A stretch of DNA of 64,000 nt from Minisyncoccota bacterium. GTDB lineage: Bacteria > Patescibacteriota > Minisyncoccia > Phycocordibacterales > UBA9973. The notes beneath the pieces are model-generated. The model was given only the letters and a program-made list of their open reading frames with translations. It had not been told where the DNA came from and ran no database searches. Below, piece after piece: positions 5,377-36,847 of this stretch. The translations under genes and the position numbers were made by a program. The DNA is taken from positions 20,903 to 84,902 of the forward strand of contig DASWWS010000002.1 of NCBI GenBank assembly GCA_036405895.1, read 5' to 3'. The stretch's first letter is position 1; every line of letters begins with the position of its first letter.

Positions 5377-5431
5377 TTTCCTATTCCTCTGCAATGGGGC
5401 GTATATTTTCAGCTTAAATTTTTAACCCACT

Positions 5432-6208
5432 ATGATCACTACAGAACAAGTAAAGGAACTTCGCGACAAGACAGGTATCAGCGTTATGCAGTGCCGCAAA
5501 GCGCTTGAAGAAGCCGAAGGCGACATGGACAAGGCTGTTATCCTCCTTCAGAAGAAGGGTGCGGATATTGCTGCAAAGAAAGGCGACCGCGATGCTTCAG
5601 ACGGCACAGTAGTTGTACGCACTGACGGCAAGCGCGCGCTTACTCTTATCCTTAACTGCGAAACTGACTTCGTGGCAAAGAACGAAGACTTCGTAGCGCT
5701 TATTAACAAGCTCGCTGACGTAGCGTGGGAAAGTGGCATCGATGCTATGCGCGAAGCTGCACCGGCTCTCATCAGCGATGTAGTGCTCAAGATCGGGGAA
5801 AAGATCGAGCTTGGCCAAGTGGAAGAAATCTCAGGCGACGCTGTTGGCGCATACACTCACCACACCGGCAAAACTGCTGCTGTGGTAGTGCTCGCTGGCG
5901 GAACTCCTGATGTTGCAAAAGACATCGCAATGCATGTTACTGCAATGAAGCCTGCATTCCTCTCAGGAACTGAAATTTCTGAAGAGAACAAGGCAAACGT
6001 TATGGAAGTATTGAAAGCGGAAGTTGAAAATTCTGACAAGCCTGAAGAAATGAAAGCAAAAATCCTTGAAGGAAAGATCGCATCATTCTTCAAAGAGCAG
6101 ACCCTTCTCGACCAGCCATTCTTCAAGACTCCTGAAAAGACCATTGAACAGTTCGCAAAAGACAATGGAGCGACAGTCGAAAAGTTTGTGATCTATAACG
6201 TAGCATAA
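5432..6208 (+). CDS. tsf: elongation factor Ts
   Basis: MITTEQVKELRDKTGISVMQCRKALEEAEGDMDKA UBA-like N-terminus typical of EF-Ts; classical rpsB-tsf pairing. Confidence 0.9.
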   Translation: MITTEQVKELRDKTGISVMQCRKALEEAEGDMDKAVILLQKKGADIAAKKGDRDASDGTVVVRTDGKRALTLILNCETDFVAKNEDFVALINKLADVAWESGIDAMREAAPALISDVVLKIGEKIELGQVEEISGDAVGAYTHHTGKTAAVVVLAGGTPDVAKDIAMHVTAMKPAFLSGTEISEENKANVMEVLKAEVENSDKPEEMKAKILEGKIASFFKEQTLLDQPFFKTPEKTIEQFAKDNGATVEKFVIYNVA

Positions 6209-6221
6209 GCAGGGCCGTTGT

Positions 6222-6608
6222 ATGGTTACAACACTCCTCATTGTTCTCGCTGTACTTATTGTCCTGTTCTGGCTCTCTGTCATGCTTCTGTGGTGGCACG
6301 AAAGCGAGGCGCGCGAACACGCAACCCTTGACCGCGTAGCCATGCGCCAAGTAGAGCGGGCTATCCGCCTGACGCGCCGCAGCTACTATGCAGGAGCGCT
6401 CTATACCCGCCGTGCATTCAATTGGGGAAATAAGAGCGTAGCCCGAGCCTTTGTTCACGTGTTCCCGAAAGCAGCCCCCCTATTCCAAAAGCATGATGTG
6501 CTGGCAGGCCTTGAAAGCGGCCCTTCCTCATACTTCCTTCACAGCATTTCACGCTCAAAGGAAGAGGGTGAAAAGCCGAAAATCCGCAGAAAGAAAATAG
6601 TTGCATAA
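6222..6608 (+). CDS. hypothetical membrane-anchored protein
   Basis: 128 aa, N-terminal TM helix (LLIVLAVLIVLFWLSVMLLWW), basic C-terminus; no recognisable family. Confidence 0.4.
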   Translation: MVTTLLIVLAVLIVLFWLSVMLLWWHESEAREHATLDRVAMRQVERAIRLTRRSYYAGALYTRRAFNWGNKSVARAFVHVFPKAAPLFQKHDVLAGLESGPSSYFLHSISRSKEEGEKPKIRRKKIVA

Positions 6609-6921: not shown

Positions 6922-8310
6922 CTATTTCACCTCCCCTATCAACACTTGGCACGAGCCGTGGTTTGCGATGGCGGTGAAGTTCACTTTTGGAGCAAGGGTA
7001 TCAAGAAGAAGTGCTGTCTCTGCGCCACAACTCCCTCCCGCCTGACACTGCAGTAAGTCGCATGAGTTGAAATAGAGGAAATCAATATCATTTTCATTAC
7101 TATCAAATGCAATAAGATATTTGGCAGTCGTTTCAAAAGAACCAATCAATCGGACTGGTGCAAACGCCGCAATTGAAGGGTGCGTGGAGAGCACGGTCGC
7201 ACCAGGATACTCTCTGAAGCTTTTGTAGTACTCCTCGAGGATTTTATTCTTACCAAAACCGATGTTTGCGTGGAGCATGAGGAAAAATCCCGCAACCGCA
7301 AGTATTGAAACCGCACTAACGAGGACGGTCCTCGTTAGTGTTTTGGTGCGAGAAAAGAGGGTGGCAATACCAAGACCTGCCAAGAGTGCCAGAGGGGCAA
7401 ATGCCGGCATAATATAGCGCGGTTCTTTATGCTCCTCCATGCTGAAATAAAGAAAGAATGACACTGCAACAAAAGCGAGTATTCCGATAACAATATTCTT
7501 TGTCTGCTCATTCTTTTTGTAAAAGAAAAACGGTATGAGAGAAAATATGACCAATGGTGCGCCCAATACTAGTACGCCGACATAAAACAATGCATGCTCC
7601 CTGTAGAGAAAGCTCACTTCGTGTGCAACCCGCGCGCCTTCAGTGATAGGCATCAGTGCCCCACCAAAGAGAAAGATATTGCTGATGAGGTATGTCGCGA
7701 GAATAAGGAGGGCCCCAAGCGAAAAATGCATTCCGCGTTTTATAACAACAGAAATATGCTTTGTTTCTATCCATGCCTGCACTGCAAGCGCGATGCCAAA
7801 GAGCGGGATTAACAATCCGTATGGAAAGCGAAGCAAGAGCATTACTGCCGTTACCACCCCTCCCCACACATACGCACGCTTAATAAAAAGAATATAAAAT
7901 ACTATGAAAAATCCGAGTACCCCAAATACTTCAGTGGTTGGAAGCGTGCTAAACGTATTAAACAGTGTGGCACTTGCAAGCACTACAGCTGCCCACCCGC
8001 CGGCAGTTGGCATATACTGCTCTCCTACTTTGTACGCCACATAGAGTGCACCAAAGGATGCAAAAATGGTGAGCCCTATTGCCCATGCAATGGGGATGCC
8101 GAACAATGCCCCAAATGAAAACAACAATGGCAGCAGTGGCGGGCGGTACACTTCCCAAAATCCTAAGCTTCCGAAACTTTCAATGTAGCGCCCCATGCCG
8201 ACATACACAGCGGCATCCCATGCAAACGCAGAGGGCCACAGTAGAAGGTACACAATGCGGCAAGCGAGAATGCCGAGCGCTATGACAAACAGCAGCCGCG
8301 ACAATTTCAT
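6922..8310 (-). CDS. GT39/ArnT-like (PMT_2 family) integral membrane glycosyltransferase
   Basis: 462 aa, about 11 predicted TM helices, N-terminal half resembles dolichyl-phosphate-mannose/undecaprenyl-sugar transferases; C-terminal soluble Cys-rich domain. Confidence 0.6.
   Translation of the reverse strand: MKLSRLLFVIALGILACRIVYLLLWPSAFAWDAAVYVGMGRYIESFGSLGFWEVYRPPLLPLLFSFGALFGIPIAWAIGLTIFASFGALYVAYKVGEQYMPTAGGWAAVVLASATLFNTFSTLPTTEVFGVLGFFIVFYILFIKRAYVWGGVVTAVMLLLRFPYGLLIPLFGIALAVQAWIETKHISVVIKRGMHFSLGALLILATYLISNIFLFGGALMPITEGARVAHEVSFLYREHALFYVGVLVLGAPLVIFSLIPFFFYKKNEQTKNIVIGILAFVAVSFFLYFSMEEHKEPRYIMPAFAPLALLAGLGIATLFSRTKTLTRTVLVSAVSILAVAGFFLMLHANIGFGKNKILEEYYKSFREYPGATVLSTHPSIAAFAPVRLIGSFETTAKYLIAFDSNENDIDFLYFNSCDLLQCQAGGSCGAETALLLDTLAPKVNFTAIANHGSCQVLIGEVK
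7314..7340. repeat. type C hairpin repeat (cactaacgaggac-g-gtcctcgttagtg) inserted in-frame inside the CDS 6922..8310
   Basis: perfect 13+1+13 palindrome; encodes ...TLTRTVLVS... in the host protein; same arm type as copy at 57745. Confidence 0.85.
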
Positions 8311-8311
8311 A

Positions 8312-8998
8312 TTAATTCTGAGGCGTTACAGGAGTCTTTGGAGCCGGATTCGTAATAGCACTTGGAAGGACAGCTGTGATTTCAGCAAGAGACTTAAAGC
8401 CGTTGACGGTCACGCCGTCTATCACAAGCGCCGGAAGCTGGTCGTTGATGCCATACACGGTCTTGAGCGTTTTAATCGTTGTCAGATCAAGATTTGAATC
8501 AAACGAATAGATGCGCACGTCGTCGTATTTGTTGCGAAGCGCGTCGAGGACATATCCTTGCTTCACGCAGTCCGGACAGACATTTTTGTCAGTATAAAAA
8601 TAGAGGATAGTGACCGGCAGGTTGTTGCAGCGCTCTGCAATTTGTTTTGAAATGACAAAGTCCTTCACCTCCAAAATAGAATACTGCTTTTTGAGTTCAA
8701 GCGAGTCCGCGGCTGATGTTCCGTTTTCTTCGGTGTAGGTAATGCGCTCGGCAAGATTTGCAATTTCTTTTGAAAGATAGGTATTGCCCACATCTTCGCA
8801 GGAAAGGTCTTTAATTAAGTCGAGCTGCGTTTCAGAAGAGAGGATGTCGGTTGCAACACGGTCCTGCAGGTCGCGAATATTCTGAAGCTTGCGCTCGGTG
8901 ATGTACGAGCTGAGAAATACCGCTCCTCCGAAAATGCCGGAAGTTAAGAGAAAGGCGAGAAGATATTTGCTCCATTTGTATCGGTTGAAAAAATTCAT
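8312..8998 (-). CDS. membrane-anchored thioredoxin-fold protein (CxxC)
   Basis: 228 aa, N-terminal TM, CPDC active-site-like motif in C-terminal thioredoxin-like region. Confidence 0.5.
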   Translation of the reverse strand: MNFFNRYKWSKYLLAFLLTSGIFGGAVFLSSYITERKLQNIRDLQDRVATDILSSETQLDLIKDLSCEDVGNTYLSKEIANLAERITYTEENGTSAADSLELKKQYSILEVKDFVISKQIAERCNNLPVTILYFYTDKNVCPDCVKQGYVLDALRNKYDDVRIYSFDSNLDLTTIKTLKTVYGINDQLPALVIDGVTVNGFKSLAEITAVLPSAITNPAPKTPVTPQN

Positions 8999-26067: not shown

Positions 26068-27078
26068 ATGTTCTGGCGTCTCCTTTTAGTTGTTATAGCT
26101 CTTGGAGTGAGCACGATTGTGTTTTCTTTTGCGTACCCGCTGACGCCCGGCACTGGTATGCGCAGCAAACTTACCCAACAAGAATTTCCCAATGACATTA
26201 TAGTGGGGTGGGTTGGCGACATGGTGCCAAGCCGGGACAGTACGTACAACCATGCAGTGCTTTCTTTTGTCGCACCGGCGCTCGTTGCGCCTGACCTCAT
26301 GATCGGCAACCTCGAAGGCACCTTTGCCGCTGAGAACCGATCAAGCAAGTGCATCTACCTCCTGAACCGCTGCCATGCATTTCGCGGAGACGCGTCATTT
26401 GCGGAAGGATTGAAAACTGCGGGCTTTGATTTTGTAAGTCTTGTGAACAACCACTCATACGACTACGGCGAGATGGGGCTTGCCGATACTACTGCTGTCC
26501 TTGATGCCGCTGGCATCCCCTATGTCGCACCAAACAAGCCCTTTACTAGTATTACAGTGAAAGGAAAGCGTATTGGCATCCTCGGCCTTTCCAGCACCGA
26601 GCCAACGCGCACCATCACCGACTATGATTTTATAAAAAATACCGTTGCAAAACTAAAGCAAGAAAATGATTTCGTCATCGTCATCTTCCACGGAGGAAAC
26701 GAAGGGTCTGACAAAACAGCGGTACCGGGTGTGAACGAATACATGGGTACTGAAGACCGCGGCAACGTCCAGCTGGTGGCATACACTGCAATTGATGCAG
26801 GTGCAGACCTCGTGCTTGGCTCAGGCCCGCATGTCTTGCGCAAAATAGAAACATATAAGGGCAAGAAAATTGCGTACTCGCTTGGCAACTTTGTCGGCGG
26901 CAACGGAAGCCTTGTCACCAGTGGCACGCTTGGCCTCTCCGGCATTTTCACTTCCACACTCTCGTACGACCACAGCCCCGACCCAACATTCACCTCCGTC
27001 ATCCTCACCAAAAACGGCACACCGACACTCGACCCATTGAACCGCGGCAAAGACCTCATTGAGCAATTGTCGCAATAG
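26068..27078 (+). CDS. CapA/PgsA-family metallophosphatase-like protein (membrane-anchored)
   Basis: N-terminal TM; GDxxxxR, VNNHSYDYG (NNH), FHGGNEG motifs characteristic of the CapA family. Confidence 0.7.
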   Translation: MFWRLLLVVIALGVSTIVFSFAYPLTPGTGMRSKLTQQEFPNDIIVGWVGDMVPSRDSTYNHAVLSFVAPALVAPDLMIGNLEGTFAAENRSSKCIYLLNRCHAFRGDASFAEGLKTAGFDFVSLVNNHSYDYGEMGLADTTAVLDAAGIPYVAPNKPFTSITVKGKRIGILGLSSTEPTRTITDYDFIKNTVAKLKQENDFVIVIFHGGNEGSDKTAVPGVNEYMGTEDRGNVQLVAYTAIDAGADLVLGSGPHVLRKIETYKGKKIAYSLGNFVGGNGSLVTSGTLGLSGIFTSTLSYDHSPDPTFTSVILTKNGTPTLDPLNRGKDLIEQLSQ

Positions 27079-27079
27079 A

Positions 27080-27108
27080 AAAAGCCGTATCAATTGATAC
27101 GGCTTTTA
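27080..27108. terminator. bidirectional rho-independent terminator
   Basis: aaaagccgtatcaattgatacggctttt between convergent capA-like and 27113..27523 genes. Confidence 0.7.
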
Positions 27109-27112
27109 TTTG

Positions 27113-27523
27113 CTATCGCGGGCACAGCAGGCGTTGCCATTCCTCGGGTGAAATGCCCGGCCGTCTGATGCGCCGAGAGGAGTACACAGGGTATGAGCTT
27201 CTTGTTACAGCCCTCCTTGAAACAGTTGCTGTCCGGGGGCGATTTCTGCTTTGTTCAAGCAATAGCGCAAGCGAGTCGCGCTCCATATAAAGCCGCGTCA
27301 CTTCTGCTCGAGCATAGGCAAGCGCTTCTTTAAGCTCCTCAACTTCCCTATTTCGATTTTTGGGAATGGTGATTTCAACAAGCGGCTTTTTTATCTTTGC
27401 CACCGTCGGCTCCGAAAGCTCTCGCTTGCGAACGCCCCAGTACCATACTCCCCATACAATTACTGCTGCTAGTGCGAGCAGTGCAATAAACTTCAAAAAT
27501 CCTTTTGCTGATCCGTTTGCCAT
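27113..27523 (-). CDS. hypothetical membrane-anchored coiled-coil protein
   Basis: 136 aa; TM near N-terminus, Arg-rich C-terminus; no family assignment. Confidence 0.4.
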   Translation of the reverse strand: MANGSAKGFLKFIALLALAAVIVWGVWYWGVRKRELSEPTVAKIKKPLVEITIPKNRNREVEELKEALAYARAEVTRLYMERDSLALLLEQSRNRPRTATVSRRAVTRSSYPVYSSRRIRRPGISPEEWQRLLCPR

Positions 27524-27760
27524 ATTCAGTTGTATTAAGTGAACGATTGCTTCTTGGCGGTATAATGCCGATATCTATCCCCGAAGTCAATAAAAATAGT
27601 CGTACCACCACTTGGGTGATACGACCGGTTTTCTCTCGCCTGTCGGCAAGAAAAATGGGCAGATTAGCTTTTTTCTGATGCGAGCTGTCTCATAGCGTAT
27701 TTCCCTCAGTGTACTCCTCTGTCACTAAAGTGCAAATAAAAAAAATAAACTAGATATGTC

Positions 27761-28282
27761 TTACATTGACGGCAGACCAAGACGATTTAATGTAATTCCT
27801 TCAAATTCATAATCGCACTCAACTTCTTTAATATAAGCGAGTACGTCTTTATATGCGGGAGCTTGGAACCATTCACTTAGGATATAAATATATTCAACTT
27901 GAACACCGAGTGCATTTAAAAGTTTTTCATACTGTCGTTTCTTAAAATGACAAGTTTGTAATTTCTCATCTACTGATCCAGCAACATTCTGGAACTTAAT
28001 TTCAATCACAAAAAATGTATTTGTATTTAATACTAAAATAGCATCATCAGGAAGAAGTTTTTTGGAGAGAATTTCCCTATGATTTATACCTTTTCTTTCA
28101 AGAAATTTATATAAGGTGTTTTTTCGAAGATTAAGAGCAACTACTTCTCCATTAAATAAAATAGAGCCATCATCCTTAACCTCATAACCCGGCATCGTCT
28201 TAAGAACAGTAAGAAAATCAACCCTACCTTCAAAATGCATTCCAGATTTTGTATTTCCGCCCCCAACACCACCAAGCTTCAT
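27761..28282 (-). CDS. short PD-(D/E)xK nuclease, likely N-terminally truncated DpnII/MboI-family (GATC) restriction endonuclease
   Basis: 173 aa; LPDDAILVLNTNTFFVIEIKFQNVAGSVDEKL resembles DpnII catalytic block FDFVIKNEQGELYLIEVNFYSGSGSKLNE (recalled from memory); N-terminus GGVGGGNTKSG resembles DpnII mid-region DTNGRKNRTG; full-length family members are about 280-290 aa. Confidence 0.5.
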   Translation of the reverse strand: MKLGGVGGGNTKSGMHFEGRVDFLTVLKTMPGYEVKDDGSILFNGEVVALNLRKNTLYKFLERKGINHREILSKKLLPDDAILVLNTNTFFVIEIKFQNVAGSVDEKLQTCHFKKRQYEKLLNALGVQVEYIYILSEWFQAPAYKDVLAYIKEVECDYEFEGITLNRLGLPSM

Positions 28283-28361
28283 ATCGATCAGATTACCATT
28301 TAAGGCTTCTCTGTCAATAAATTCACTTACCTAGGAATCTAAGGGTGCAACTGATAAAATC

Positions 28362-29210
28362 ATGTTTATGAAAGTGACGAGAAAAGTAAAGCCATTTCTT
28401 AAATGGGTTGGGGGCAAGGGCCAATTACTGGAGCAATTCGAAAATATTTATCCAAAGAAATTCAATACATATTACGAACCTTTTATTGGTGGGGGTGCTG
28501 TTTTCTTTTCTATTAACCCTAAGAAGGGTGTTATTAATGACATTAATCAAACTCTAGTTAATACATACAAGAATATTAAAAATCAGCCCGAAAAGTTAAT
28601 CAGGTCCCTTAAAAAAATTGAGAAAGATTTTATAGCTAAAAATGAGGATGATCGTAAGGAGTATTATTATTTAATTCGAGATAAATATAATCGGCTTTCT
28701 TCTGAAGATTTCAACCGTAGCGTCTACTTTCTATTTTTAAATAAGACAGCCTTTAATGGTGTGTACCGAGAAAATTCAAAAGGAGGTTTTAACGTGCCGA
28801 TAGGCAGCTATAAAAATCCTAAAATTGTTGATGAAGAAAATATATTAGCAATCTCAAACACATTAAAGAATACGAAAATTACGTGCTCCTCTTTTGTTGA
28901 TGCGGTAAAAAATGCAAAGTCAGGAGATTTTGTATATTTTGATCCCCCCTATTACCCCTTATCTAAAACTTCGCAATTCACTAGCTATAGTAAAGATTCA
29001 TTTTCAGAAGAAGATCAAATTAAACTTCGCGATCTATTTGTTCAGTTAGATAAAAAAGGTGTTTACGTGATGCTCAGTAATTCAAGCGCCTCTTTTATAA
29101 AGAAAATCTATGCTGGATATACCCAAATCCCTGTATATGCTAATCGCATGATTAATTCAAAGTCAGATAGGCGAGGAAAGATATCAGAAGTAGTTATTAT
29201 TAATTATTAA
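28362..29210 (+). CDS. Dam-family (alpha-class) N6-adenine DNA methyltransferase, probable GATC specificity (DpnM/M.MboIA-like)
   Basis: KPFLKWVGGKGQLL, EPFIGGGAVFF (motif I), NGVYRENSKGGFNVPIGSY, FVYFDPPYYPL (motif IV), FTSYSKDSF - near-diagnostic Dam signature. Confidence 0.9.
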   Translation: MFMKVTRKVKPFLKWVGGKGQLLEQFENIYPKKFNTYYEPFIGGGAVFFSINPKKGVINDINQTLVNTYKNIKNQPEKLIRSLKKIEKDFIAKNEDDRKEYYYLIRDKYNRLSSEDFNRSVYFLFLNKTAFNGVYRENSKGGFNVPIGSYKNPKIVDEENILAISNTLKNTKITCSSFVDAVKNAKSGDFVYFDPPYYPLSKTSQFTSYSKDSFSEEDQIKLRDLFVQLDKKGVYVMLSNSSASFIKKIYAGYTQIPVYANRMINSKSDRRGKISEVVIINY

Positions 29211-30021
29211 GTTTTATAAGATCTTCAAAACGTTTTCGAGAAAGTTCTAGATATTTTTTCTCCATATCAATACCAATAAATTTCCTTCCATGTTTTTTTG
29301 CAGCAATCCCAGTTGTTGAGCTTCCTGTAAAAGGGTCAAGAACAACGTCCCCCTTATTTGTACTTGCTAATATAATCCTCTCTAAAAGAGATAATGGTTT
29401 TTGAGTTGGGTGTTTGGTAAATTTTTTTTCTTCTTTTTTAGGAGGATGAACTGCCCATACTGAACGCATTTGAAGATTAGGTTTTTTAATAAAATCTTCA
29501 GACCATTCGCCATTTTTCATCAAATCATAATTGAATATATGTTTTGCTTTTTTATCTTTGCGAGCCCATAAAATAGTTTCATGACTTGCAGTAAAAAACC
29601 TACAACTAAGATTAGGTGCTGCATTTGGTTTAAACCAAGATATGTCATTAAGCATATGAAATCCAATTGACTGGATAGCATGCCCACATTGATAAATAGA
29701 ATGATACGTACCACTAACCCAAATGGTGCCATGCGGCTTAAGAACACGATGGCATGCATTGAGCCATTTTTCGTGGAAGGCATAATCGCTGGCAAAACCC
29801 TTACTCTTATCCCATTCCCCCTTATTAACACTCACCATCTTTCCTGCATGGACTGTAAAACCATTATTTGAAAGCATATATGGAGGGTCAGCAAAAATCA
29901 TATCAATTGAATCTTCAGGGAGTGAATTCAAAAGTTCTACGCAGTCACTCAGGTAAAGAACGAAGTCTTTACCTGAGTAATGTGGCTTATTTTTAACATT
30001 TCTAAGTATTCTCTCAGGCAT
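29200..30021 (-). CDS. beta-class N6-adenine (or N4-cytosine) DNA methyltransferase, DpnA/M.MboIC-like second methylase
   Basis: IFADPPYM (motif IV) near N-terminus then VLDPFTGSSTTGIAA (motif I) near C-terminus = beta permutation; long collinear similarity to DpnA as recalled (KHPTQKP..LERIILAST). Confidence 0.85.
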   Translation of the reverse strand: MPERILRNVKNKPHYSGKDFVLYLSDCVELLNSLPEDSIDMIFADPPYMLSNNGFTVHAGKMVSVNKGEWDKSKGFASDYAFHEKWLNACHRVLKPHGTIWVSGTYHSIYQCGHAIQSIGFHMLNDISWFKPNAAPNLSCRFFTASHETILWARKDKKAKHIFNYDLMKNGEWSEDFIKKPNLQMRSVWAVHPPKKEEKKFTKHPTQKPLSLLERIILASTNKGDVVLDPFTGSSTTGIAAKKHGRKFIGIDMEKKYLELSRKRFEDLIKLNN

Positions 30022-30166
30022 TACGTATAGTTTAACTTATTAAAATGAACTTAACATAAAAAATTGTTAAATTATATATAAATTACCCATAAGATCCACA
30101 ATTTATACTAACCCGCACAGGACACAAAAGCCTCTTTAAGTAGAAGTTTTTGTTATAATAATAGAA

Positions 30167-31348
30167 GTGATTAGACTATTAAAAAACGATGACAAGCTTA
30201 TTTTAAGTTACTCTACAGATAATCCATGGTTTCGTGACCGACTACGAAATGGACAAGATATTTCTCTTAAAAAGAGAGCATTTATCCTATCAAAAAATGA
30301 TATTTCTAAACAAGATATTGATGATGATGGCGCTGATGTAGAATTTATTCTTGGAAATTTAATTGAGGGTCAATATTTTAAAATTGAAGGTAGAAAACTA
30401 GGGATTAATCAGGATGTGTACATAGACAAAAATGTAGAAATAACAGAAAGTTTCTTTCTTGGAGTAAGAGACATCCCCATATTTCAAAAAATTAGTAGGG
30501 TAGTAAATGAAGACATTTATATTGGAGGTAAACTAGAGGAGTCTATACCCCTGGAGGAATTTGAACAGTTACTTAAGAATTTTCCAAATTCCTATGAAAT
30601 TGCAAAATATCTGGACGCTCGTCTCGCTTCTGTATTAAGTAACTATTTCGATTCTTCATCAAATGTAGAAGCGAAATATCAGCGCTACATGAACAAAAAA
30701 CAAAGTATCAAAGGCGAGGATTTACCTGAACTTTTTAAAGAGAGAGAAATAGTCAAGTACGAAACAATTCTCGAAAAACTCGAACTGATGCTTTTAAATC
30801 AAAATAAATATAACGAAAAACAGTGGCAGAAAGAAATACTCGAAATAATTCTACTTTTGTATCCTAAATATATTTACGCATTTGAAGAAGCCCCTATTCG
30901 GGATCAGTATCAAAGTAAGGATAGAAAGATTGATTTCCTACTCATTGATGCTAACGGAAACACGGACATTATTGAAATCAAGCGACCATTAAACGAAAGG
31001 ATTATCACAAAAGGACGGTATCGTGATAATTACATACCACTAAGAGAGTTATCTGGAACAGTGATGCAGATTGAAAAGTATATATATCATCTTAATAAAT
31101 CTGGGCAGACTGGCGAGAATAGATTGACCACGAAGTATAAGAGTAAGCTACCTGCTGATTTCAAAATAAAGATTACCAATCCTGGTGGAATGATTATCAT
31201 GGGAAGAGACAATCTTCTTTCTCGTGATCAAATGGAAGATTTTGAAGTGGTAAAGAGAAAATACAAAAATGTAATTGATATCATTACCTATGACGATCTC
31301 ATAAGAAGACTGAAATCTATTATTACAGCTTGGAAAAATAGAGCTTAA
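30167..31348 (+). CDS. Shedu-like defense nuclease (DUF4263 PD-(D/E)xK domain at C-terminus), GTG start
   Basis: 393 aa; C-terminal block KIDFLLIDANGNTDIIEIKRP (D...ExK) followed by VMQIEKYIYHL (Q..Y) as in DUF4263/SduA; N-terminal about 230 aa unassigned. Confidence 0.6.
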   Translation: MIRLLKNDDKLILSYSTDNPWFRDRLRNGQDISLKKRAFILSKNDISKQDIDDDGADVEFILGNLIEGQYFKIEGRKLGINQDVYIDKNVEITESFFLGVRDIPIFQKISRVVNEDIYIGGKLEESIPLEEFEQLLKNFPNSYEIAKYLDARLASVLSNYFDSSSNVEAKYQRYMNKKQSIKGEDLPELFKEREIVKYETILEKLELMLLNQNKYNEKQWQKEILEIILLLYPKYIYAFEEAPIRDQYQSKDRKIDFLLIDANGNTDIIEIKRPLNERIITKGRYRDNYIPLRELSGTVMQIEKYIYHLNKSGQTGENRLTTKYKSKLPADFKIKITNPGGMIIMGRDNLLSRDQMEDFEVVKRKYKNVIDIITYDDLIRRLKSIITAWKNRA

Positions 31349-31353
31349 ACTTA

Positions 31354-33285
31354 CTACAGGACAATAATTTCCCACTGATTTTGATCTATATCACTAAGAT
31401 TAGCAGTATACCTATCATTATGGATAGCAACACAAAGAAGATGCGTTGGTCGAGATAATCCAACATACATCATTTTTGTAGACTCTTTATGGTAAATTCG
31501 AGCGTCGTTAAATACCGTACCCTTGAATTGTGGACTTAACCTTTGTGACTCGTATGCAATAGTTCTTTGTTGGTGGTAATTTGTTTCAAGATAAAGAGTT
31601 GCTGTATGTGTTTGACCCTTAACTGAGTGAATAGTTGCAACTTCAACTTTGATACCGTCGCCATTATAAATATTTGGAGACTCTTCCACCTCAGTATTAT
31701 AAATTGGTGTTCCAGCATGAGGAGTATCAATAAATGTCCTGCTTTCCGCTATCTCTTTGCCAAACAAGGCAAGTAGGCTGACTAAATAGGTCTTTATATC
31801 AGTAAGAACCTGATCCTTTTGTCCTTTGATAAGCCTAAAACTCCACTCAGCTAATTTTAGCTTAAAAGAATCGTATACCTCCTCATCTTGCTCACTTAGA
31901 AAGCTTAGAAACTTTTGTCGTGTATAAAATCTATCATTCTCGTCAACAATATTTTCCAAACGTAATATTCTTATAATAGCGTTAATTATATTTTTCTTAA
32001 AAGGCTCAAAAGTTTTTTCCCCAGCCTTTATATTAGAGAGATAGGCCTCAAGGCAGTCACAGTCTATTTTGGGTTGTCTTGCATCTTTAGAAAAAGTTGG
32101 GTGGTAATCACCGATTCTGGTTTTATTTGCTTCAACTTTAGTATTCCAACCGATAGCTCTATATTTATTTTTTGGAGAGTTAGTTATCTTCCCCTCATCT
32201 TGGAAAGCCTTAATCATTTCTGCAAATCTTGATATAACTTGAGAAATATTTGCATCCGTATAAACAATTATATGAGGTTTAATATCTATCTCAGATCCAT
32301 CACCATTCTTCATATGCCCAACAATGGCTATATTTTGTAGACCAAAAGGTACAACAACCTGTGCGATCTTAGGATTAAGGCGGTGGCTACCATTCAACTC
32401 TAAGACGGTAGGTCTATCAACCCATTGAGTATTCGCTTTAGCGGAATCGCTAAAAATTGATTGATTCTTGTCTCCGATTCGTTGATAGACTGACTCACTA
32501 GCACCTTCGCTGTAAAAAAGTTTTTCTAGGATATCATATTGAAGAGAGTCCATATCTTGAACCTCATCAACAAACACAAAGCGGAATCTTTTCTGCAAAA
32601 GAGTTTTAATTTGAGGATATTTATCAATCGCCTCAAATGCCAAAATAAATGCGTCCTCAAAACTGAGATAGCCTTTTTCTCTGAGTTGCTTTTTAAGAGC
32701 CAGGATTGCAACAGCTGTAGCATTGGTAGTATCTGCAAAAGTAGGAACGGGTGGATATCCGCTTGCGAGCAAGTCATTTGGATGTAGCTTGATATTAAAC
32801 AGCTTAGACTCATCACTTGTTCCAAATTGATGACCTAGCCATGCCCTTGCGGGTCCAGGCACATATTGTGACTGATAATAAGATTGATCGTCGATACGAA
32901 AAACTTTCTTTCCATATTTATTCACATAAAAAGGCGTTGCGATAAATTTATCAACAAATATCTGGATTGTTCCAACAAAGTTTGGGTAACTGAACAAATG
33001 TGAACAATATTTGCCAATCTTGTCTTTGATTTCGTCAATCGCAGCGTTCGTATGAGAAATGACTAAAATACCTGAGCCATCAGCAAAAGGTAGGTATCTA
33101 TCAAGTATTAAAAGCTTTGCTAGGAGTGCCGTTGTCTTTCCACTACCAGGAACAGCTTGTAGATCTAGAATCTCAAGATTGGTGATAAAATCACGTCGCT
33201 CCTGATCAAAATGTTGTCCATCTGGAAGCAGTATTGATTCAGCATAAGCAATATCATCTTCCGTAACATTAAGAGTTTGAGGCAT
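31354..33285 (-). CDS. gajB: Gabija GajB-like UvrD/PcrA-type superfamily-1 helicase
   Basis: 643 aa; Walker A AVPGSGKTTALLAK, motif II FVFVDEVQD; overlaps gajA-like gene by 17 nt. Confidence 0.75.
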   Translation of the reverse strand: MPQTLNVTEDDIAYAESILLPDGQHFDQERRDFITNLEILDLQAVPGSGKTTALLAKLLILDRYLPFADGSGILVISHTNAAIDEIKDKIGKYCSHLFSYPNFVGTIQIFVDKFIATPFYVNKYGKKVFRIDDQSYYQSQYVPGPARAWLGHQFGTSDESKLFNIKLHPNDLLASGYPPVPTFADTTNATAVAILALKKQLREKGYLSFEDAFILAFEAIDKYPQIKTLLQKRFRFVFVDEVQDMDSLQYDILEKLFYSEGASESVYQRIGDKNQSIFSDSAKANTQWVDRPTVLELNGSHRLNPKIAQVVVPFGLQNIAIVGHMKNGDGSEIDIKPHIIVYTDANISQVISRFAEMIKAFQDEGKITNSPKNKYRAIGWNTKVEANKTRIGDYHPTFSKDARQPKIDCDCLEAYLSNIKAGEKTFEPFKKNIINAIIRILRLENIVDENDRFYTRQKFLSFLSEQDEEVYDSFKLKLAEWSFRLIKGQKDQVLTDIKTYLVSLLALFGKEIAESRTFIDTPHAGTPIYNTEVEESPNIYNGDGIKVEVATIHSVKGQTHTATLYLETNYHQQRTIAYESQRLSPQFKGTVFNDARIYHKESTKMMYVGLSRPTHLLCVAIHNDRYTANLSDIDQNQWEIIVL

Positions 33286-35098
33286 AACGTATTGCTTTTA
33301 TTAAGTAGCTTATAGTGTCAGCTTCATCGTCCTTATTAATAGTGACTAACGATGTAGTGTTTTGAAAATTCTTATCTAAAAGATTAGCAAGCTTATAGGC
33401 GATTTCTGTTTTCTTTAAGCCTTTATTGATCAACTTTTCGGCTAGTGATTTTTCAAAATCATCAGTCCAATTTGTTCCTGTATGAATAGCCTCAACAACC
33501 ATTTTAAAACTATCAGATAGACAACTCGAGTTTAGAAGTGAGTATTCTAAGGTCCACTGTGGAGCAACAAAGAATTTTACATTCTCTTCTGATCTAGCCT
33601 CTATAGTAGGAATTTTAGCTATTGTTTCTGCCTCTACCGTAGCTGTATCAATCTTTGCAAACTCATATTGATTTTTCCCCGCTACCTTAACTGGCTTACC
33701 ATCGCCGTCTAACACCAAATCTTTCTGGTATCTTGGCACGTCTACATCAGTCACAACAGCAACAGGGATATTCATCGGACTACCACTTTGTCTCAAAAAG
33801 ATATTCGTATAATTTGAAAATCCTAGATTCCCAATATTAATAACGGTGACACCTTTTTCTGTTAAATCGATACCCATCTTTTTTGCAATACTCGGTATCA
33901 AAATCTCTTCTGCCCACCCCTCTACCAAAATGACACCTTTGGCAAAAAATAAATTTGCTTTTGTTGTATCAAGAAACTTTTCTAAAAAAACGTATTCTTT
34001 TTGATCGAGCTTTGTATATTCTGAACCCATTGGAAAAGCAGCGCCGTCTTTGCAAACTATTAGATGTTTAAGTTTTACCTTAGAAGCGAGATTGGGGCTG
34101 TGAGTAGTCAGTATAAGCTGAATATCCTTTTGAGCCTGAAGTACCTCTATAACCTGCATTTGAGCCTGAGGATGCAAATGTGCCTCTAACTCTTCAATTA
34201 AGCCAAGTCGTAAGCCATTCCAATTTGGTTTATTCAGGTGAAGTAACTCTGACGACATAAACAACTTGTTCAATGTTCCTAAGCCTGGGTTAATTACGCC
34301 CTTGAGCGAAAGCTCCAGTCTTTCAAGAATATTTTTCAGTTTTCCGTCATTAACTGTAAAAACAGATTCACGATCTGGGTGATAAAAAGACTGAATGTAC
34401 TTATCTATTTCATTTTTCAAATCCTGTCCTTTTAGATCACCAATAGCGACATCATCAGTGTCTTTTCCTTCAAAATATTTTTCAATCGAAGTATTAAAGT
34501 GTTTGAATATTTCAATTAGAAGGTGGTCATCTTTCTTGCCTTTAAAAGCATCATGTCCCTGAAGAATCTGGGACAATCGAGAGTTCTTTTTTGGAACCAA
34601 TTCTGATTCAGCATCTCGCAATGGTCGTAGATAAGTACTCTTCAAATAATCTCTGGCTTCTGCGTTTAGGGTAACCCCTTCTGTATCTACACCAGCTTTT
34701 ATGTCATAAGGAAATACCTGCTCTGATCCAGCACTTCTTTTTACATCCAATATTAATCTAAGAAAGCATTGTGCATCTTCTCCTTCACCGGTCCAACCGA
34801 GCCAATCAATAAAGTTCTTTGCTTCCTGAAGATTTAAATCAATGAACATTAGCTCAATCCTAAAACGAGAACTATTACCGAAGAAGTCATCTTGTTCTGC
34901 TCGAATCCAGTCAAAACTGTGAGTCTTAAGTGTAAGTTTTATAGCGTCTATAATTGCTGATTTTCCTGAATCATTCTCACCGATAAGAACATTCAATCCC
35001 TTGGTGAGGTTAAGGTCTAAATCTGGAGAATCAAGATTGAAATCAGTTGGTTTTCCATATTTTCTAAAATTCCATAACTTGATATTTGCTAGATACAT
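33269..35098 (-). CDS. gajA: Gabija GajA-like OLD-family nuclease (ABC ATPase + TOPRIM)
   Basis: 609 aa; Walker A LIGENDSGKS, ABC signature/D-loop IEELEAHLHP, H-loop LILTTHSP, TOPRIM glutamate VILVEGWAEE and DxD VVTDVDV. Confidence 0.8.
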   Translation of the reverse strand: MYLANIKLWNFRKYGKPTDFNLDSPDLDLNLTKGLNVLIGENDSGKSAIIDAIKLTLKTHSFDWIRAEQDDFFGNSSRFRIELMFIDLNLQEAKNFIDWLGWTGEGEDAQCFLRLILDVKRSAGSEQVFPYDIKAGVDTEGVTLNAEARDYLKSTYLRPLRDAESELVPKKNSRLSQILQGHDAFKGKKDDHLLIEIFKHFNTSIEKYFEGKDTDDVAIGDLKGQDLKNEIDKYIQSFYHPDRESVFTVNDGKLKNILERLELSLKGVINPGLGTLNKLFMSSELLHLNKPNWNGLRLGLIEELEAHLHPQAQMQVIEVLQAQKDIQLILTTHSPNLASKVKLKHLIVCKDGAAFPMGSEYTKLDQKEYVFLEKFLDTTKANLFFAKGVILVEGWAEEILIPSIAKKMGIDLTEKGVTVINIGNLGFSNYTNIFLRQSGSPMNIPVAVVTDVDVPRYQKDLVLDGDGKPVKVAGKNQYEFAKIDTATVEAETIAKIPTIEARSEENVKFFVAPQWTLEYSLLNSSCLSDSFKMVVEAIHTGTNWTDDFEKSLAEKLINKGLKKTEIAYKLANLLDKNFQNTTSLVTINKDDEADTISYLIKAIRYASNS

Positions 35099-35167
35099 GA
35101 TGGGCTGATTCTAGCATTTTCAGAGATGTTTTTGAAATAAAAAATGTCTTAAAATAAATTTCATGTC

Positions 35168-36847
35168 CTAATACCCTCCCTGCGGTTGCTCGGGCTTTGG
35201 CGCATCAGGGTCGTCGGCGATGGCGACGTCGGTTGTCAGGAGGATGCCGGCGGCTGAGGCTGCATTCTGCAGTGCTGTGCGGGTGACTTTAACCGGGTCA
35301 ATGATTCCTTTTTTCATCATTTCGACTAGTACAAAATCGCCAGAGAGTGTATCTGCCCCTGCGTCATAGCCAAATGCATTCTCGGACTTCTGCACTGCGT
35401 CCACTACAAGAGACGGATCTGTGTGGCCTGCATTGTGTGCAATTTGCCGCAATGGTGCAGTGAGTGCATCAGTGAGTGCCATGTAGCCTGCCATGAATTC
35501 AGACTCGTGCTTATCTGTCGCAGACTTTTTGTAGCGCGCACTCTTGAACATTGCACTAGTGACAGTGCCAGATACTTTTGCAAGCGCCACTCCGCCGCCG
35601 GGCACAATTCCCTCTTCGATTGCAGCTTTGGTTGCGTTGACTGCGTCTTCGATTTTGAGCTTAAGATACTTCATCTCTGTTTCTGTTGCAGCCCCTACAC
35701 GAATAACTGCAACACCGCTGGTTAGCTTTGCGATGCGCTTTTCGAGGTGGTCGCGGGTGAACTTATCGAGCTTGCTGCCGCCTACTTGAGTGAGCTCTCC
35801 TTTGATAGCGTCAACACGTTCTTTGATAGCACTCTTCTTTCCTTTGCCGTCTACGATGACTGTTTTCTCTTTTGTTGAAATGACTTTGCCAGCTTTACCC
35901 AATACAGAGGTGTCTGCTGTCTCAAGCGCGATGCCAAGCGCATCAGTCACCACTGTTGCACCAACAAGCGCTGCAATGTCTGCAAGCTCTCCTGCCTTGC
36001 GGTCGCCAAACCCTGGGGCCTTGATTGCGAGAATATTGAAAATGCCGCGGATTTTGTTTAATACGAATGTCGTGAGTGCTTCGCCGTCGATATCTTCGGC
36101 AATAATCACCAATTCTTTTTTACCCGCAGCTGCGAGTTTCTCAAGAAGCGGAAGGACGTCCTTAATAGCAGAAATCTTTTTGTCGGTCACCAATACGGGA
36201 ACAGTGGTGTAGCTCGCCTCTCCGCGCTCTGCATTGTTGATCATGTAGTGCGAGACGAAGCCTTTGTCGAATTCCATTCCTTCTACCACTTCGCTTGTGA
36301 CACCAAACACTTGGGACTCTTCTACTGTCACCACGCCGTCAGTGCCAACCTTATCTATAGTACTTGCGATGATGCCGCCAATTTCAGTACTCTCGGCAGA
36401 AATGGTTGCAACCTGCTTGATCTCTTCTTTGTTTTTTACTGGGCGCGCCATGCCGCGAAGCGCCTCTACAACATCTGCGGCTGCAGCTTCAATGCCTTGG
36501 CGAAGTATCAGGCCATTTGCACCGGCGCCAATGCGCTTTACGCCTTCTGTGGCGATAGCGGCCGTGAGTACTACTGAGGTGGTAGTGCCGTCTCCTGCCG
36601 TGTCATTGGTCTTGCTTGCGACTTCTTTGATAATTTCGGCTCCCATGTTTTCGAACTTGTCGAGAAGCGTGATTTCGCGCGCGATAGAGACGCCGTCGTT
36701 GGTGATCATCGGCGCGCCGTATCCTTTATCGAATACGACATTTCGCCCGCGGGGGCCAAGCGTGATGCGCACTGCATCCGCTACTGTATTGAGTCCTTTT
36801 GTGAGCGCTTCTTGCGCTTCGATGCCGTGTAAGATTTTCTTTGCCAT
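35168..36847 (-). CDS. groL: chaperonin GroEL (60 kDa)
   Basis: MAKKILHGIEAQEALTKGLNTVADAVRITLGPRGRNVV...; full-length; C-terminus ends PKPEQPQGGY (no GGM repeat tail). Confidence 0.95.
   Translation of the reverse strand: MAKKILHGIEAQEALTKGLNTVADAVRITLGPRGRNVVFDKGYGAPMITNDGVSIAREITLLDKFENMGAEIIKEVASKTNDTAGDGTTTSVVLTAAIATEGVKRIGAGANGLILRQGIEAAAADVVEALRGMARPVKNKEEIKQVATISAESTEIGGIIASTIDKVGTDGVVTVEESQVFGVTSEVVEGMEFDKGFVSHYMINNAERGEASYTTVPVLVTDKKISAIKDVLPLLEKLAAAGKKELVIIAEDIDGEALTTFVLNKIRGIFNILAIKAPGFGDRKAGELADIAALVGATVVTDALGIALETADTSVLGKAGKVISTKEKTVIVDGKGKKSAIKERVDAIKGELTQVGGSKLDKFTRDHLEKRIAKLTSGVAVIRVGAATETEMKYLKLKIEDAVNATKAAIEEGIVPGGGVALAKVSGTVTSAMFKSARYKKSATDKHESEFMAGYMALTDALTAPLRQIAHNAGHTDPSLVVDAVQKSENAFGYDAGADTLSGDFVLVEMMKKGIIDPVKVTRTALQNAASAAGILLTTDVAIADDPDAPKPEQPQGGY

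What the first reader, a model, noticed from the sequence alone, without database searches (positions are those of the whole stretch)
31354..35098. Gabija operon with overlapping gajA/gajB and an enlarged GajB
GajA shows every ABC-ATPase and TOPRIM hallmark of OLD/GajA. GajB is a UvrD-type helicase but is 643 aa (canonical GajB is about 490-500), implying an extra C-terminal module (about 31354-31800 region). The genes overlap by 17 nt (translational coupling).
Basis: partly seen in the sequence, partly recalled or inferred. Interest (0 to 1): 0.55.

Follow-up and report, generated by a model that had tools for sequence, protein, structure and literature searches.

The report
Ordinary Gabija operon, long-GajB subfamily
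This is a normal two-gene Gabija anti-phage system (nuclease plus helicase-like partner) of an already catalogued subfamily; its helicase is not enlarged by an extra C-terminal module, and its only unusual aspect is where it sits, in a small horizontally acquired defence island of a Paceibacterota (CPR) genome.

Summary
Two minus-strand ORFs are present, gajA at 33269-35098 (609 aa) and gajB at 31354-33285 (643 aa), and they overlap by 17 nt. GajA has the full ABC-ATPase and class 2 OLD TOPRIM catalytic set. Both proteins match PADLOC Gabija models end to end (E=8e-223 and 1e-233).

The "extra C-terminal module" is not supported. Residues 536-643 carry the invariant helicase motifs V and VI of the 2A RecA-like core, and the protein ends 25 residues after motif VI. 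The roughly 149 residues beyond B. cereus GajB are spread over the N-terminus, 1B, 2A and, above all, a helical insert at the 2B position (about 381-535).

A length of 643 aa is normal, even short, for this clade:
- relatives measure about 620-702 aa;
- the best PADLOC GajB profiles are 647 and 663 positions long;
- the insert occurs only at this position, in 374 cluster representatives.

The 17-nt overlap is shared across the clade (49 of 73 loci), and overlapping frames were already reported for class 2 OLD-helicase pairs.

The pair lies in a 7.4-kb low-GC island next to groEL, together with Shedu and a two-methylase restriction-modification module.

Verdict: new member of a known kind, low interest.

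The parts
33269..35098 (-). gajA: class 2 OLD-family nuclease, 609 aa (N-terminal ABC-type ATPase, then TOPRIM and a helical domain)
   Evidence: Pfam AAA_15 1.3e-24, AAA_21 7e-19, OLD-like_TOPRIM 2.6e-17. PADLOC GajA PDLC00099 E=8e-223, residues 1-608 against profile 1-619/626. PDB sequence hits to the class 2 OLD C-terminal regions 6njv and 6nk8 and to Ts OLD 6p74.
34958..34981 (-). GajA Walker A (G40-ENDSGK-S47)
   Evidence: Motif scan. G40, N42, D43, S44, G45 and K46 are invariant in 40 homologues. Walker B/D-loop LIEELEAHLHP (E302, E303, H307, H309, P310) and H-loop T332-H333-S334-P335 are also invariant.
33734..33949 (-). GajA TOPRIM core (residues 384-455) with E393, E397, G423 and D451-x-D453
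   Evidence: Pfam PF20469 covers residues 384-453. Residue-level HMMER alignments to Bp, Xcc and Ts OLD. All these residues are invariant. Together with T516, E518 and K563 they match BpOLD E400, E404, D455, D457, T506, E508 and K562 (PMC6755086).
33269..33285 (-). 17-nt gajA/gajB overlap (gajB ATG inside the last six codons of gajA)
   Evidence: Sequence read directly. The same 17-nt overlap occurs in 49 of 73 measurable loci of the clade.
31354..33285 (-). gajB: SF1A UvrD-like helicase-fold ATPase, 643 aa
   Evidence: Pfam UvrD-helicase 1.4e-23, residues 43-279. PADLOC GajB PDLC00146 E=1.3e-233 and PDLC00131 E=1.3e-208, residues 3-641 against profile 2-645/647. AlphaFold model pLDDT 87.7. 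Foldseek: PcrA 4.7e-22, UvrD 9e-22, B. cereus GajB 3e-13.
33130..33156 (-). GajB motif I / Walker A (A44-VPGSGKT-T52)
   Evidence: A44, P46, S48, G49, K50, T51, T52 invariant. Aligned to UvrD GAGSGKT by hhalign and hmmsearch.
32554..32568 (-). GajB motif II / DExQD box (D240-E-V-Q-D244)
   Evidence: Aligned to UvrD DEFQD. Motif III G271-D-K-N-Q275 and motif IV S300/R302 are also invariant.
31681..32145 (-). GajB accessory helical insert at the 2B position (residues about 381-535); it holds most of the extra length relative to B. cereus GajB
   Evidence: DSSP of the model shows helices 391-394, 412-417, 426-443, 456-466, 468-486, 490-506 and 516-520, lying between 2A strand 375-379 and strands 539-551. 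The isolated-domain model (pLDDT 82.9) has no significant PDB neighbour (best E=1.9). Its profile finds 374 cluster representatives; among the 150 listed, every protein of 600 aa or more carries it at about residues 323-640, mostly 360-575.
31357..31680 (-).
   Evidence: H553, K556, G557, H560, Y607, V608, G609, S611 and R612 are invariant. Motif VI aligns collinearly with UvrD 593-613. Strand-helix pattern. Only 25 residues follow motif VI.
35108..35136 (-). Promoter-like site in the 69-nt groEL-gajA spacer (TTCAAA, 17 nt, TG-n-TAGAAT); the -10 hexamer ends 9 nt before the gajA ATG
   Evidence: Consensus scan and sequence. This is a consensus match only. No terminator-like site lies between groEL and gajA.

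Best explanation
The locus is a two-gene Gabija anti-phage system. It belongs to the widespread 'long-GajB' subfamily that PADLOC already models.

Shown here:
- GajB is an SF1A UvrD/PcrA-fold ATPase with all NTPase motifs.
- The four-subdomain layout (1A about 1-106 and 205-285; 1B about 107-204; 2A about 286-380 and 536-643; accessory insert about 381-535) is the size of the UvrD core without its C-terminal tail. These boundaries are estimates from the model's secondary structure and the motif positions.
- There is no appended C-terminal module.

Inferred from work on B. cereus VD045 and P. aeruginosa PA14 Gabija:
- GajA and GajB assemble into a 4:4 complex.
- Physiological NTP levels keep GajA DNA binding and cleavage off.
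- During infection GajA nicks or cleaves DNA, either through nucleotide depletion or because phage DNA ends lack RecBCD protection.
- GajB acts as a DNA-end-stimulated (d)NTPase or translocase that reinforces activation.

The conserved 17-nt overlap most likely couples gajB translation to gajA and so helps keep the two subunits balanced (inference). The operon arrived by horizontal transfer as part of a 7.4-kb low-GC defence island downstream of groEL in a Paceibacterota genome.
For: - ORFs and overlap.
- PADLOC full-length matches: GajA 8e-223, GajB 1.3e-233 and 1.3e-208.
- Pfam: AAA_15, AAA_21, OLD-like_TOPRIM, UvrD-helicase.
- TOPRIM alignments to Bp, Xcc and Ts OLD. The invariant residues E393, E397, G423, D451, D453, T516, E518 and K563 match the experimentally defined BpOLD set (PMC6755086) and the B. 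cereus GajA residues E379, G409, D432 and D434 (PMC10781630).
- GajB motifs I-VI are invariant. The N-terminal half aligns to EcUvrD 26-313 at hhalign probability 97.6, and motif VI aligns to UvrD 593-613.
- The model (pLDDT 87.7) matches PcrA, UvrD and Rep over the whole length and also B. cereus GajB 8sm3_B and 8iud.
- Clade properties: the top 120 GajB homologues are 640-689 aa at 98-100% coverage. In 83 related loci gajA lies directly upstream on the same strand wherever the contig allows, and the overlap is 17 nt in 49 of 73.
- The insert profile is confined to one position in this clade.
- Island: GC 0.31-0.38 against about 0.49 in the flanks. The GajA relatives that carry a taxon name are mostly Bacteroidota, at about 60% identity. 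The island is absent downstream of groEL in 10 more distant Paceibacterota/CPR genomes that keep the upstream synteny.
Against: - Sequence similarity to the experimentally studied B. cereus VD045 proteins is very low. GajB gives no PDB sequence hit to B. cereus GajB, either alone or as a profile. GajA matches B. cereus GajA only locally at E=1e-5, and the profile search does not recover it at E<=0.001.
- Pfam does not recognise the C-terminal half of GajB at all.
- The accessory insert has no structural neighbour, so mechanistic details may differ from B. cereus Gabija.
- No functional data exist for this subfamily in what I searched.
- Complex formation, nuclease activity and defence are all inferred.
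Confidence: 0.9

Rival explanations
1. One reading: GajB is a canonical GajB of about 495 aa plus an added C-terminal module (residues about 480-643) with a new function.
For: The protein is 149 aa longer than B. cereus GajB (643 against 494; PMC10681800). Pfam finds no known domain in residues 298-643.
Against: Motif V (553-558) and motif VI (607-613) lie inside the claimed module and are invariant. Motif VI aligns collinearly with UvrD. The predicted strands and helices after residue 536 complete a RecA-like domain. Foldseek aligns the full length to the PcrA, UvrD and Rep cores. PADLOC GajB profiles of 647 and 663 positions cover the protein end to end.
Confidence: 0.03
2. GajB is really longer because of an internal, clade-specific accessory subdomain at the 2B position. 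This subdomain gives the long-GajB Gabija subfamily a sensing or partner-binding function, or true helicase activity, that differs from B. cereus Gabija.
For: The insert of about 155 aa compares with the 103-aa Cacc subdomain of B. cereus GajB. It is confidently predicted as a helical bundle, has no PDB neighbour, and is found only in this clade at this position. Unlike B. cereus GajB, this protein keeps about 25 N-terminal residues before Walker A, with invariant F26, D27 and E29, where UvrD has its adenine-binding Q-motif element. Overall it is structurally closer to PcrA and UvrD (E about 1e-22) than to B. cereus GajB (3e-13).
Against: B. cereus GajB's own Cacc subdomain likewise has no significant structural neighbour (PMC10681800), so a family-specific accessory domain is the norm for GajB and not evidence of a new function. 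No biochemical data are available. I could not make a residue-level comparison with B. cereus GajB.
Confidence: 0.25
3. The helicase is a housekeeping UvrD/PcrA/Rep repair helicase that merely happens to lie next to an OLD nuclease.
For: The best structural matches are PcrA, UvrD and Rep, and the protein is the size of the UvrD core.
Against: NCBIfam PcrA, UvrD and Rep equivalog scores are 28-44 bits against cut-offs of 911-1168. No UvrD_C domain is detected. The gene overlaps gajA by 17 nt, and this pairing holds in every related locus with enough upstream sequence. It sits in a low-GC island with Shedu and restriction-modification genes.
Confidence: 0.02

Closest known systems
PADLOC Gabija subfamily models GajA PDLC00099/PDLC00080 and GajB PDLC00146/PDLC00131
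   Same: Full-length, collinear matches (E from 1e-208 to 1e-233) with the same lengths: profiles of 626/622 and 663/647 positions against proteins of 609 and 643 aa. The gene order and overlap match the clade.
   Different: Nothing structural. This is a new instance, from a Candidatus Paceibacterota metagenome-assembled genome. The identical proteins are already in NCBI, named only 'AAA family ATPase' and 'UvrD-helicase domain-containing protein'.
Bacillus cereus VD045 Gabija (GajA 578 aa, GajB 494 aa; PDB 8SM3, 8IUD, 8J4T, 8TK0)
   Same: Same two-gene architecture. [quoted passage not shown] GajB has the SF1A four-subdomain fold with Walker A and a DExQD box.
   Different: Very low sequence similarity: no GajB-to-GajB sequence hit. 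This GajB is 149 aa longer. It has about 25 extra N-terminal residues before Walker A, larger 1A, 1B and 2A subdomains, and a 2B-position insert of about 155 aa against 103 aa. It is structurally nearer to PcrA and UvrD than to B. cereus GajB.
Class 2 OLD nucleases of Burkholderia pseudomallei and Xanthomonas campestris (PDB 6NK8, 6NJV; Schiltz et al. 2019, PMC6755086)
   Same: These are the best PDB sequence matches with the single GajA sequence, and second and third after Ts OLD 6p74 in the profile search. They cover the TOPRIM region (E 1e-11 to 1e-13). The whole catalytic set is conserved: metal A, metal B and the lysine. [quoted passage not shown]
   Different: Those proteins were characterised only as isolated nucleases in vitro. 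The ATPase regions were not compared here at residue level.
E. coli UvrD, G. stearothermophilus PcrA and E. coli Rep (SF1A repair/replication helicases)
   Same: Top structural neighbours over the full length. Motifs I-IV align by sequence. The protein is the size of the UvrD core.
   Different: No C-terminal tail. The C-terminal half is not recognised by Pfam UvrD_C. The isolated 2B-position insert shows no detectable similarity to any solved structure, UvrD or PcrA 2B included. NCBIfam equivalog scores are far below the cut-offs. The genomic context is defence rather than repair.

Membership tests
Gabija (GajA + GajB) | GajA: OLD-family protein with an N-terminal ABC-type ATPase and a C-terminal TOPRIM nuclease domain | tested here: met
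   Pfam AAA_15, AAA_21 and OLD-like_TOPRIM. PADLOC GajA 8e-223, full length. Walker A, Walker B and H-loop are invariant.
Gabija (GajA + GajB) | Complete TOPRIM active site (Glu, Gly, DxD, plus the class 2 metal-B ligands and catalytic Lys) | tested here: met
   E393, E397, G423, D451, D453, T516, E518 and K563 are invariant in 40 homologues. E393, E397, G423 and D451/D453 align to Bp, Xcc or Ts OLD. T516, E518 and K563 are assigned by position and conservation only. Reference residues are from PMC6755086 and PMC10781630.
Gabija (GajA + GajB) | GajB: SF1A UvrD-like protein encoded immediately downstream of gajA on the same strand | tested here: met
   The same adjacency is found in the related loci.
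Gabija (GajA + GajB) | GajB NTPase motifs (Walker A, DExQD, motifs III-VI including the arginine finger) | tested here: met
   K50, D240/E241/Q243/D244, Q275, R302, H553/K556/G557 and R612 are invariant. Motifs I-IV align to UvrD by sequence. Motif VI aligns weakly but collinearly. Motif V is assigned by pattern, conservation and predicted fold.
Gabija (GajA + GajB) | Detectable sequence homology to the founding B. cereus VD045 proteins | tested here: inconclusive
   GajA matches B. cereus GajA only locally (residues 294-431, E=1e-5), and the profile search does not recover it at E<=0.001. GajB gives no sequence hit to B. cereus GajB and matches it only by fold (Foldseek 3e-13 and 4.7e-13). 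Membership therefore rests on the PADLOC subfamily models and the architecture.
Gabija (GajA + GajB) | GajA4:GajB4 supramolecular complex; NTP-inhibited DNA cleavage; anti-phage protection | not testable with these tools
   Needs co-expression, biochemistry and phage challenge.
Class 2 OLD nuclease (Schiltz et al. 2019) | [quoted passage not shown] | tested here: met
   17-nt overlap. Definition quoted from PMC6755086.
Housekeeping UvrD/PcrA/Rep | Passes the NCBIfam equivalog cut-offs and has a recognisable UvrD_C domain | tested here: not met
   Scores of 28-44 bits against cut-offs of 911-1168. No Pfam hit in residues 298-643, even at E<=10.
   Motif VI is at 607-613 and the protein ends at 643. 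Residues 613-642 are predicted as the last strand-helix-strand of 2A.

The most novel reading that the evidence does not exclude
The long-GajB Gabija subfamily may work differently from the B. cereus paradigm. Three features set it apart: the retained UvrD-like N-terminal element, an overall fold closer to PcrA/UvrD, and a clade-restricted 155-aa helical insert with no structural neighbour. The subfamily could be a real DNA translocase or helicase, or the insert could act as a sensor or partner-binding surface. Its presence, with Shedu and a restriction-modification module, in a compact island of a reduced Paceibacterota genome would then point to a defence cassette tuned for CPR bacteria.
Probability: 0.2. 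Interest if true: 0.4.

Novelty: new member of a known kind. Interest (0 to 1): 0.15.

Why it matters
The locus matters little on its own. It adds one more Gabija instance to a subfamily that defence-system annotation tools already recognise.

Two points may be useful:
- The B. cereus VD045 GajB (494 aa) is a short outlier and should not be used as the length standard for GajB. Most of the catalogued GajB profiles listed are 565-738 positions long. The long clade keeps UvrD-like elements that B. cereus GajB lacks, so mechanistic conclusions such as 'GajB is not a helicase' may not carry over.
- CPR/Paceibacterota genomes are small, yet this one carries a 7.4-kb horizontally acquired island that stacks restriction-modification, Shedu and Gabija directly downstream of groESL.

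Tried and rejected
I could not retrieve the B. cereus sequences. PDB sequence searches with the single GajB sequence and with a 40-sequence profile did not hit B. cereus GajB, and the GajA profile did not hit B. cereus GajA at E<=0.001. I used published subdomain boundaries (PMC10681800) and Foldseek instead. The paper's supplement holds no sequences.
- Pfam on the C-terminal half alone (residues 298-643 and 536-643) at E<=10 gave nothing.
- hhalign of the GajB profile against EcUvrD aligned only the N-terminal half. hmmsearch with filters off added only a weak motif VI match.
- Foldseek of the isolated insert against the PDB found no significant match.
- Search for an empty insertion site: the GroEL-based scan of genome contigs found only relatives at 61% identity or less. 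Upstream synteny is kept, but the downstream side is not conserved, so the island borders could not be defined by comparison.
- No tRNA, integrase or convincing flanking repeats mark the island.
- Rejected: a housekeeping UvrD and an appended C-terminal module.
Full report
**Observation**

The two ORFs exist exactly as described. gajA is at 33269..35098 (-), 609 aa. gajB is at 31354..33285 (-), 643 aa. On the minus strand the gajB ATG (33285) lies within the last codons of gajA (…ATACGTT ATG CCT CAA ACT CTT AA), which gives a 17-nt overlap, 33269-33285. Both start codons agree with the consensus N-termini of 40 homologues each: MPxxIxITDxDIxYAE for GajB and MYLSNIKLWNFRKFG for GajA.

**GajA**

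Pfam finds AAA_15 (1.3e-24), AAA_21 (7e-19) and OLD-like_TOPRIM (2.6e-17, residues 384-453). PADLOC's GajA model PDLC00099 matches residues 1-608 at E=8e-223.

The ATPase motifs are all invariant in 40 homologues:
- Walker A, G40-ENDSGK-S47;
- Walker B/D-loop, LIEELEAHLHP (E302, E303);
- H-loop, T332-H333-S334-P335.

HMMER alignments to the class 2 OLD C-terminal regions of B. pseudomallei (6nk8) and X. campestris (6njv) and to Thermus OLD (6p74) align the TOPRIM Glu (E393), the second Glu (E397), G423 and the DxD (D451, D453). T516, E518 and K563 are also invariant. Together these reproduce the experimentally defined BpOLD catalytic set E400, E404, D455, D457, T506, E508 and K562 (PMC6755086). 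They also match B. cereus GajA E379, G409, D432 and D434 (PMC10781630).

**GajB is a UvrD-type protein, but a distant relative of B. cereus GajB**

Pfam detects only the N-terminal UvrD-helicase domain (residues 43-279, 1.4e-23). PADLOC GajB models PDLC00146 (663 positions, 1.3e-233) and PDLC00131 (647 positions, residues 3-641 against 2-645, 1.3e-208) cover the whole protein. PDB sequence searches hit UvrD1, PcrA and Rep but not B. cereus GajB, whether the query is the single sequence or a 40-sequence profile.

An AlphaFold2 model built on that alignment is confident (pLDDT 87.7). Its best Foldseek matches are full-length PcrA (4.7e-22), UvrD (9e-22) and Rep. B. cereus GajB appears only at rank 47 (8sm3_B, 3e-13) and rank 49 (8iud, 4.7e-13).

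**Is there an extra C-terminal module? No.**

The motif positions are:

| Motif | Sequence / residues |
|---|---|
| I | A44-VPGSGKT-T52 |
| II | D240-EVQ-D244 |
| III | G271-DKN-Q275 |
| IV | S300 / R302 |
| V | H553-SVKG-Q558 |
| VI | Y607-VGLSR-P613 |

The key residues are invariant across the clade. hhalign aligns residues 45-341 to EcUvrD 26-313 at probability 97.6. An unfiltered hmmsearch places motif VI on UvrD 593-613, collinearly but weakly. The protein ends 25 residues after motif VI. Residues 539-642 are predicted as the strand/helix elements that complete the 2A RecA-like domain.

**Where the extra 149 residues lie**

Published B. cereus GajB boundaries (PMC10681800):
- Ncore: 1-72 and 156-222
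- Nacc: 73-155
- Ccore: 223-313 and 417-494
- Cacc: 314-416

From the model's secondary structure and the motif positions I estimate for this protein:
- 1A: about 1-106 and 205-285
- 1B: about 107-204
- 2A: about 286-380 and 536-643
- an accessory insert at the 2B position: about 381-535

On these estimates the surplus is roughly +47 residues in 1A, +15 in 1B, +34 in 2A and +52 in the 2B-position insert. The 1A surplus includes about 25 residues before Walker A, with invariant F26, D27 and E29, where UvrD has the adenine-binding element that B. cereus GajB lacks. The boundaries are estimates because I could not superpose coordinates.

I modelled the insert alone (residues 378-538, 25-sequence alignment). 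It is a confident helical bundle (pLDDT 82.9) with no significant neighbour in the PDB (best Foldseek E=1.9). This parallels what was reported for B. cereus GajB's own Cacc subdomain. A profile of the insert searched against 1.84 billion cluster representatives finds 374 proteins at E<=0.001. Among the 150 listed, every protein of 600 aa or more carries it at about residues 323-640, mostly 360-575. The shorter hits look like fragments. The insert is therefore a fixed, clade-specific subdomain and not a mobile module.

**The length is normal for the clade**

- The best 120 homologues are 640-689 aa at 98-100% coverage and come from many phyla, including Chryseobacterium, Chitinophaga, Herbaspirillum, Nitrotoga and a Lokiarchaeota MAG.
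- In 83 related loci the GajB ORFs measure about 620-702 aa, which puts 643 aa at the short end.
- Of the 24 PADLOC GajB profiles listed, 21 are 565-738 positions long.
- Full-length relatives at about 30% identity sit on plasmids of Bacillus, Segatella, Aliivibrio, Rhizobium and Acinetobacter. They are annotated 'UvrD-helicase domain-containing protein', in some cases next to an 'AAA family ATPase'.
- B. cereus GajB and its closest relatives (493-503 aa) are the short lineage.

**The overlap**

In three distant relatives fetched individually, the called gajA and gajB genes overlap by exactly 17 nt. Across 83 loci plus the window, a GajA homologue lies directly upstream on the same strand wherever the contig leaves room. 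The overlap is 17 nt in 49 of 73 measurable cases. The other values are 14, 20, 29, 38 and so on, and some of these may reflect my heuristic choice of start codon. [quoted passage not shown] Translational coupling is a reasonable inference but has not been tested.

**Context**

GC content falls from about 0.49 to 0.31-0.38 between about 27.7 and 35.1 kb. The island contains:
- a 173-aa PD-(D/E)XK-like protein (27761-28282, -);
- a Dam-family methyltransferase (28362-29210, +);
- an N6_N4 methyltransferase (29200-30021, -);
- Shedu SduA (30167-31348, +; PADLOC 1.5e-144);
- gajB and gajA.

It abuts groEL (35168-36847, -) and groES. The identical proteins are in NCBI from a 'Candidatus Paceibacterota' MAG, and the same arrangement recurs in contigs from one sample series. 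The GajA relatives that carry a taxon name are mostly Bacteroidota, at about 60% identity. Ten more distant Paceibacterota/CPR genomes keep RNase J/SBP-groES-groEL synteny, but none has any island gene within 10 kb downstream. No tRNA, integrase or flanking repeats mark the borders.

A promoter-like site (TTCAAA, 17 nt, TG-n-TAGAAT) lies in the 69-nt groEL-gajA spacer, and no terminator-like site separates groEL from gajA. Both are consensus matches only.

**Mechanism**

Shown: both proteins have intact catalytic motifs and the Gabija/class 2 OLD architecture.

Inferred from the literature: 4:4 GajA-GajB assembly, with GajB's 1B subdomain contacting GajA (PMC10781630). Further inferred: NTP-inhibited GajA nicking or cleavage, with DNA-end-stimulated (d)NTP hydrolysis by GajB (abstracts listed). 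An alternative model is attack on phage DNA ends not protected by RecBCD (PMC12407980). Which trigger applies in a CPR host is unknown.

**Verdict**

This is a genuine Gabija operon of an already catalogued long-GajB subfamily. The proposed extra C-terminal module does not exist, and both the overlap and the length are typical of the clade. It is a new member of a known kind, of low interest. Two modest caveats apply: this subfamily is structurally closer to UvrD/PcrA than the B. cereus paradigm, and it carries a clade-specific accessory insert of unknown role.

Noticed in passing
window 27700-35100: A 7.4-kb low-GC island (0.31-0.38 against about 0.49) packs three defence systems directly downstream of groES-groEL in a Paceibacterota genome: a restriction-modification-like module, Shedu and Gabija. 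None of the island genes is found within 10 kb downstream of groEL in 10 more distant Paceibacterota/CPR genomes that keep the upstream synteny. No tRNA, integrase or flanking repeats were found.
   Followed up: partly
window 30167-31348 (+); L090 7965-9191; L144 about 5290-6520: Shedu SduA (393 aa; PADLOC PDLC00388 1.5e-144) ends 5 nt from the gajB stop codon, convergent with gajB. In a Chryseobacterium-type contig (L090) and in L144, an SduA 47-48% identical to it follows gajB immediately (5 nt downstream by the called genes in L090), but on the same strand. This may be a recurrent Gabija-Shedu linkage with an inversion here. It was seen in only 2 of 83 related loci, and many of those have little downstream sequence.
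   Followed up: partly
window 27761-28282 (-): A 173-aa ORF with only a weak PDDEXK_11 match (E=7e-4) sits next to the two methyltransferases. It belongs to a large family of proteins of about 147-199 aa (mostly 170-180 aa; 3946 hits). Several of the few named hits come from CPR/Parcubacteria MAGs, and a few are annotated as PD-(D/E)XK nucleases. It is a candidate restriction endonuclease for the Dam plus N6_N4 methyltransferase pair (a DpnII-like three-gene layout), but it matches no PADLOC restriction-enzyme model.
   Followed up: partly
window 28362-29210 (+) and 29200-30021 (-): The Dam-family (TIGR00571, 2.5e-91) and N6_N4/CcrM-like methyltransferase genes are convergent, and their 3' ends overlap by 11 nt.
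   Followed up: no
window 35099-35167: The groEL-gajA spacer is only 69 nt and has no terminator-like hairpin. The -10-like hexamer of its promoter-like site ends 9 nt before the gajA ATG. gajAB could therefore be read through from groESL, or be transcribed as a nearly leaderless mRNA. This rests on consensus matches only.
   Followed up: no
L004 about 6992-8532, compared with window 26068-27523: One contig from the same sample series lacks a called counterpart of the 136-aa ORF (27113-27523) and has a shorter PGA_cap gene (285 aa against 336 aa). This indicates population-level variation at the island's far border.
   Followed up: no
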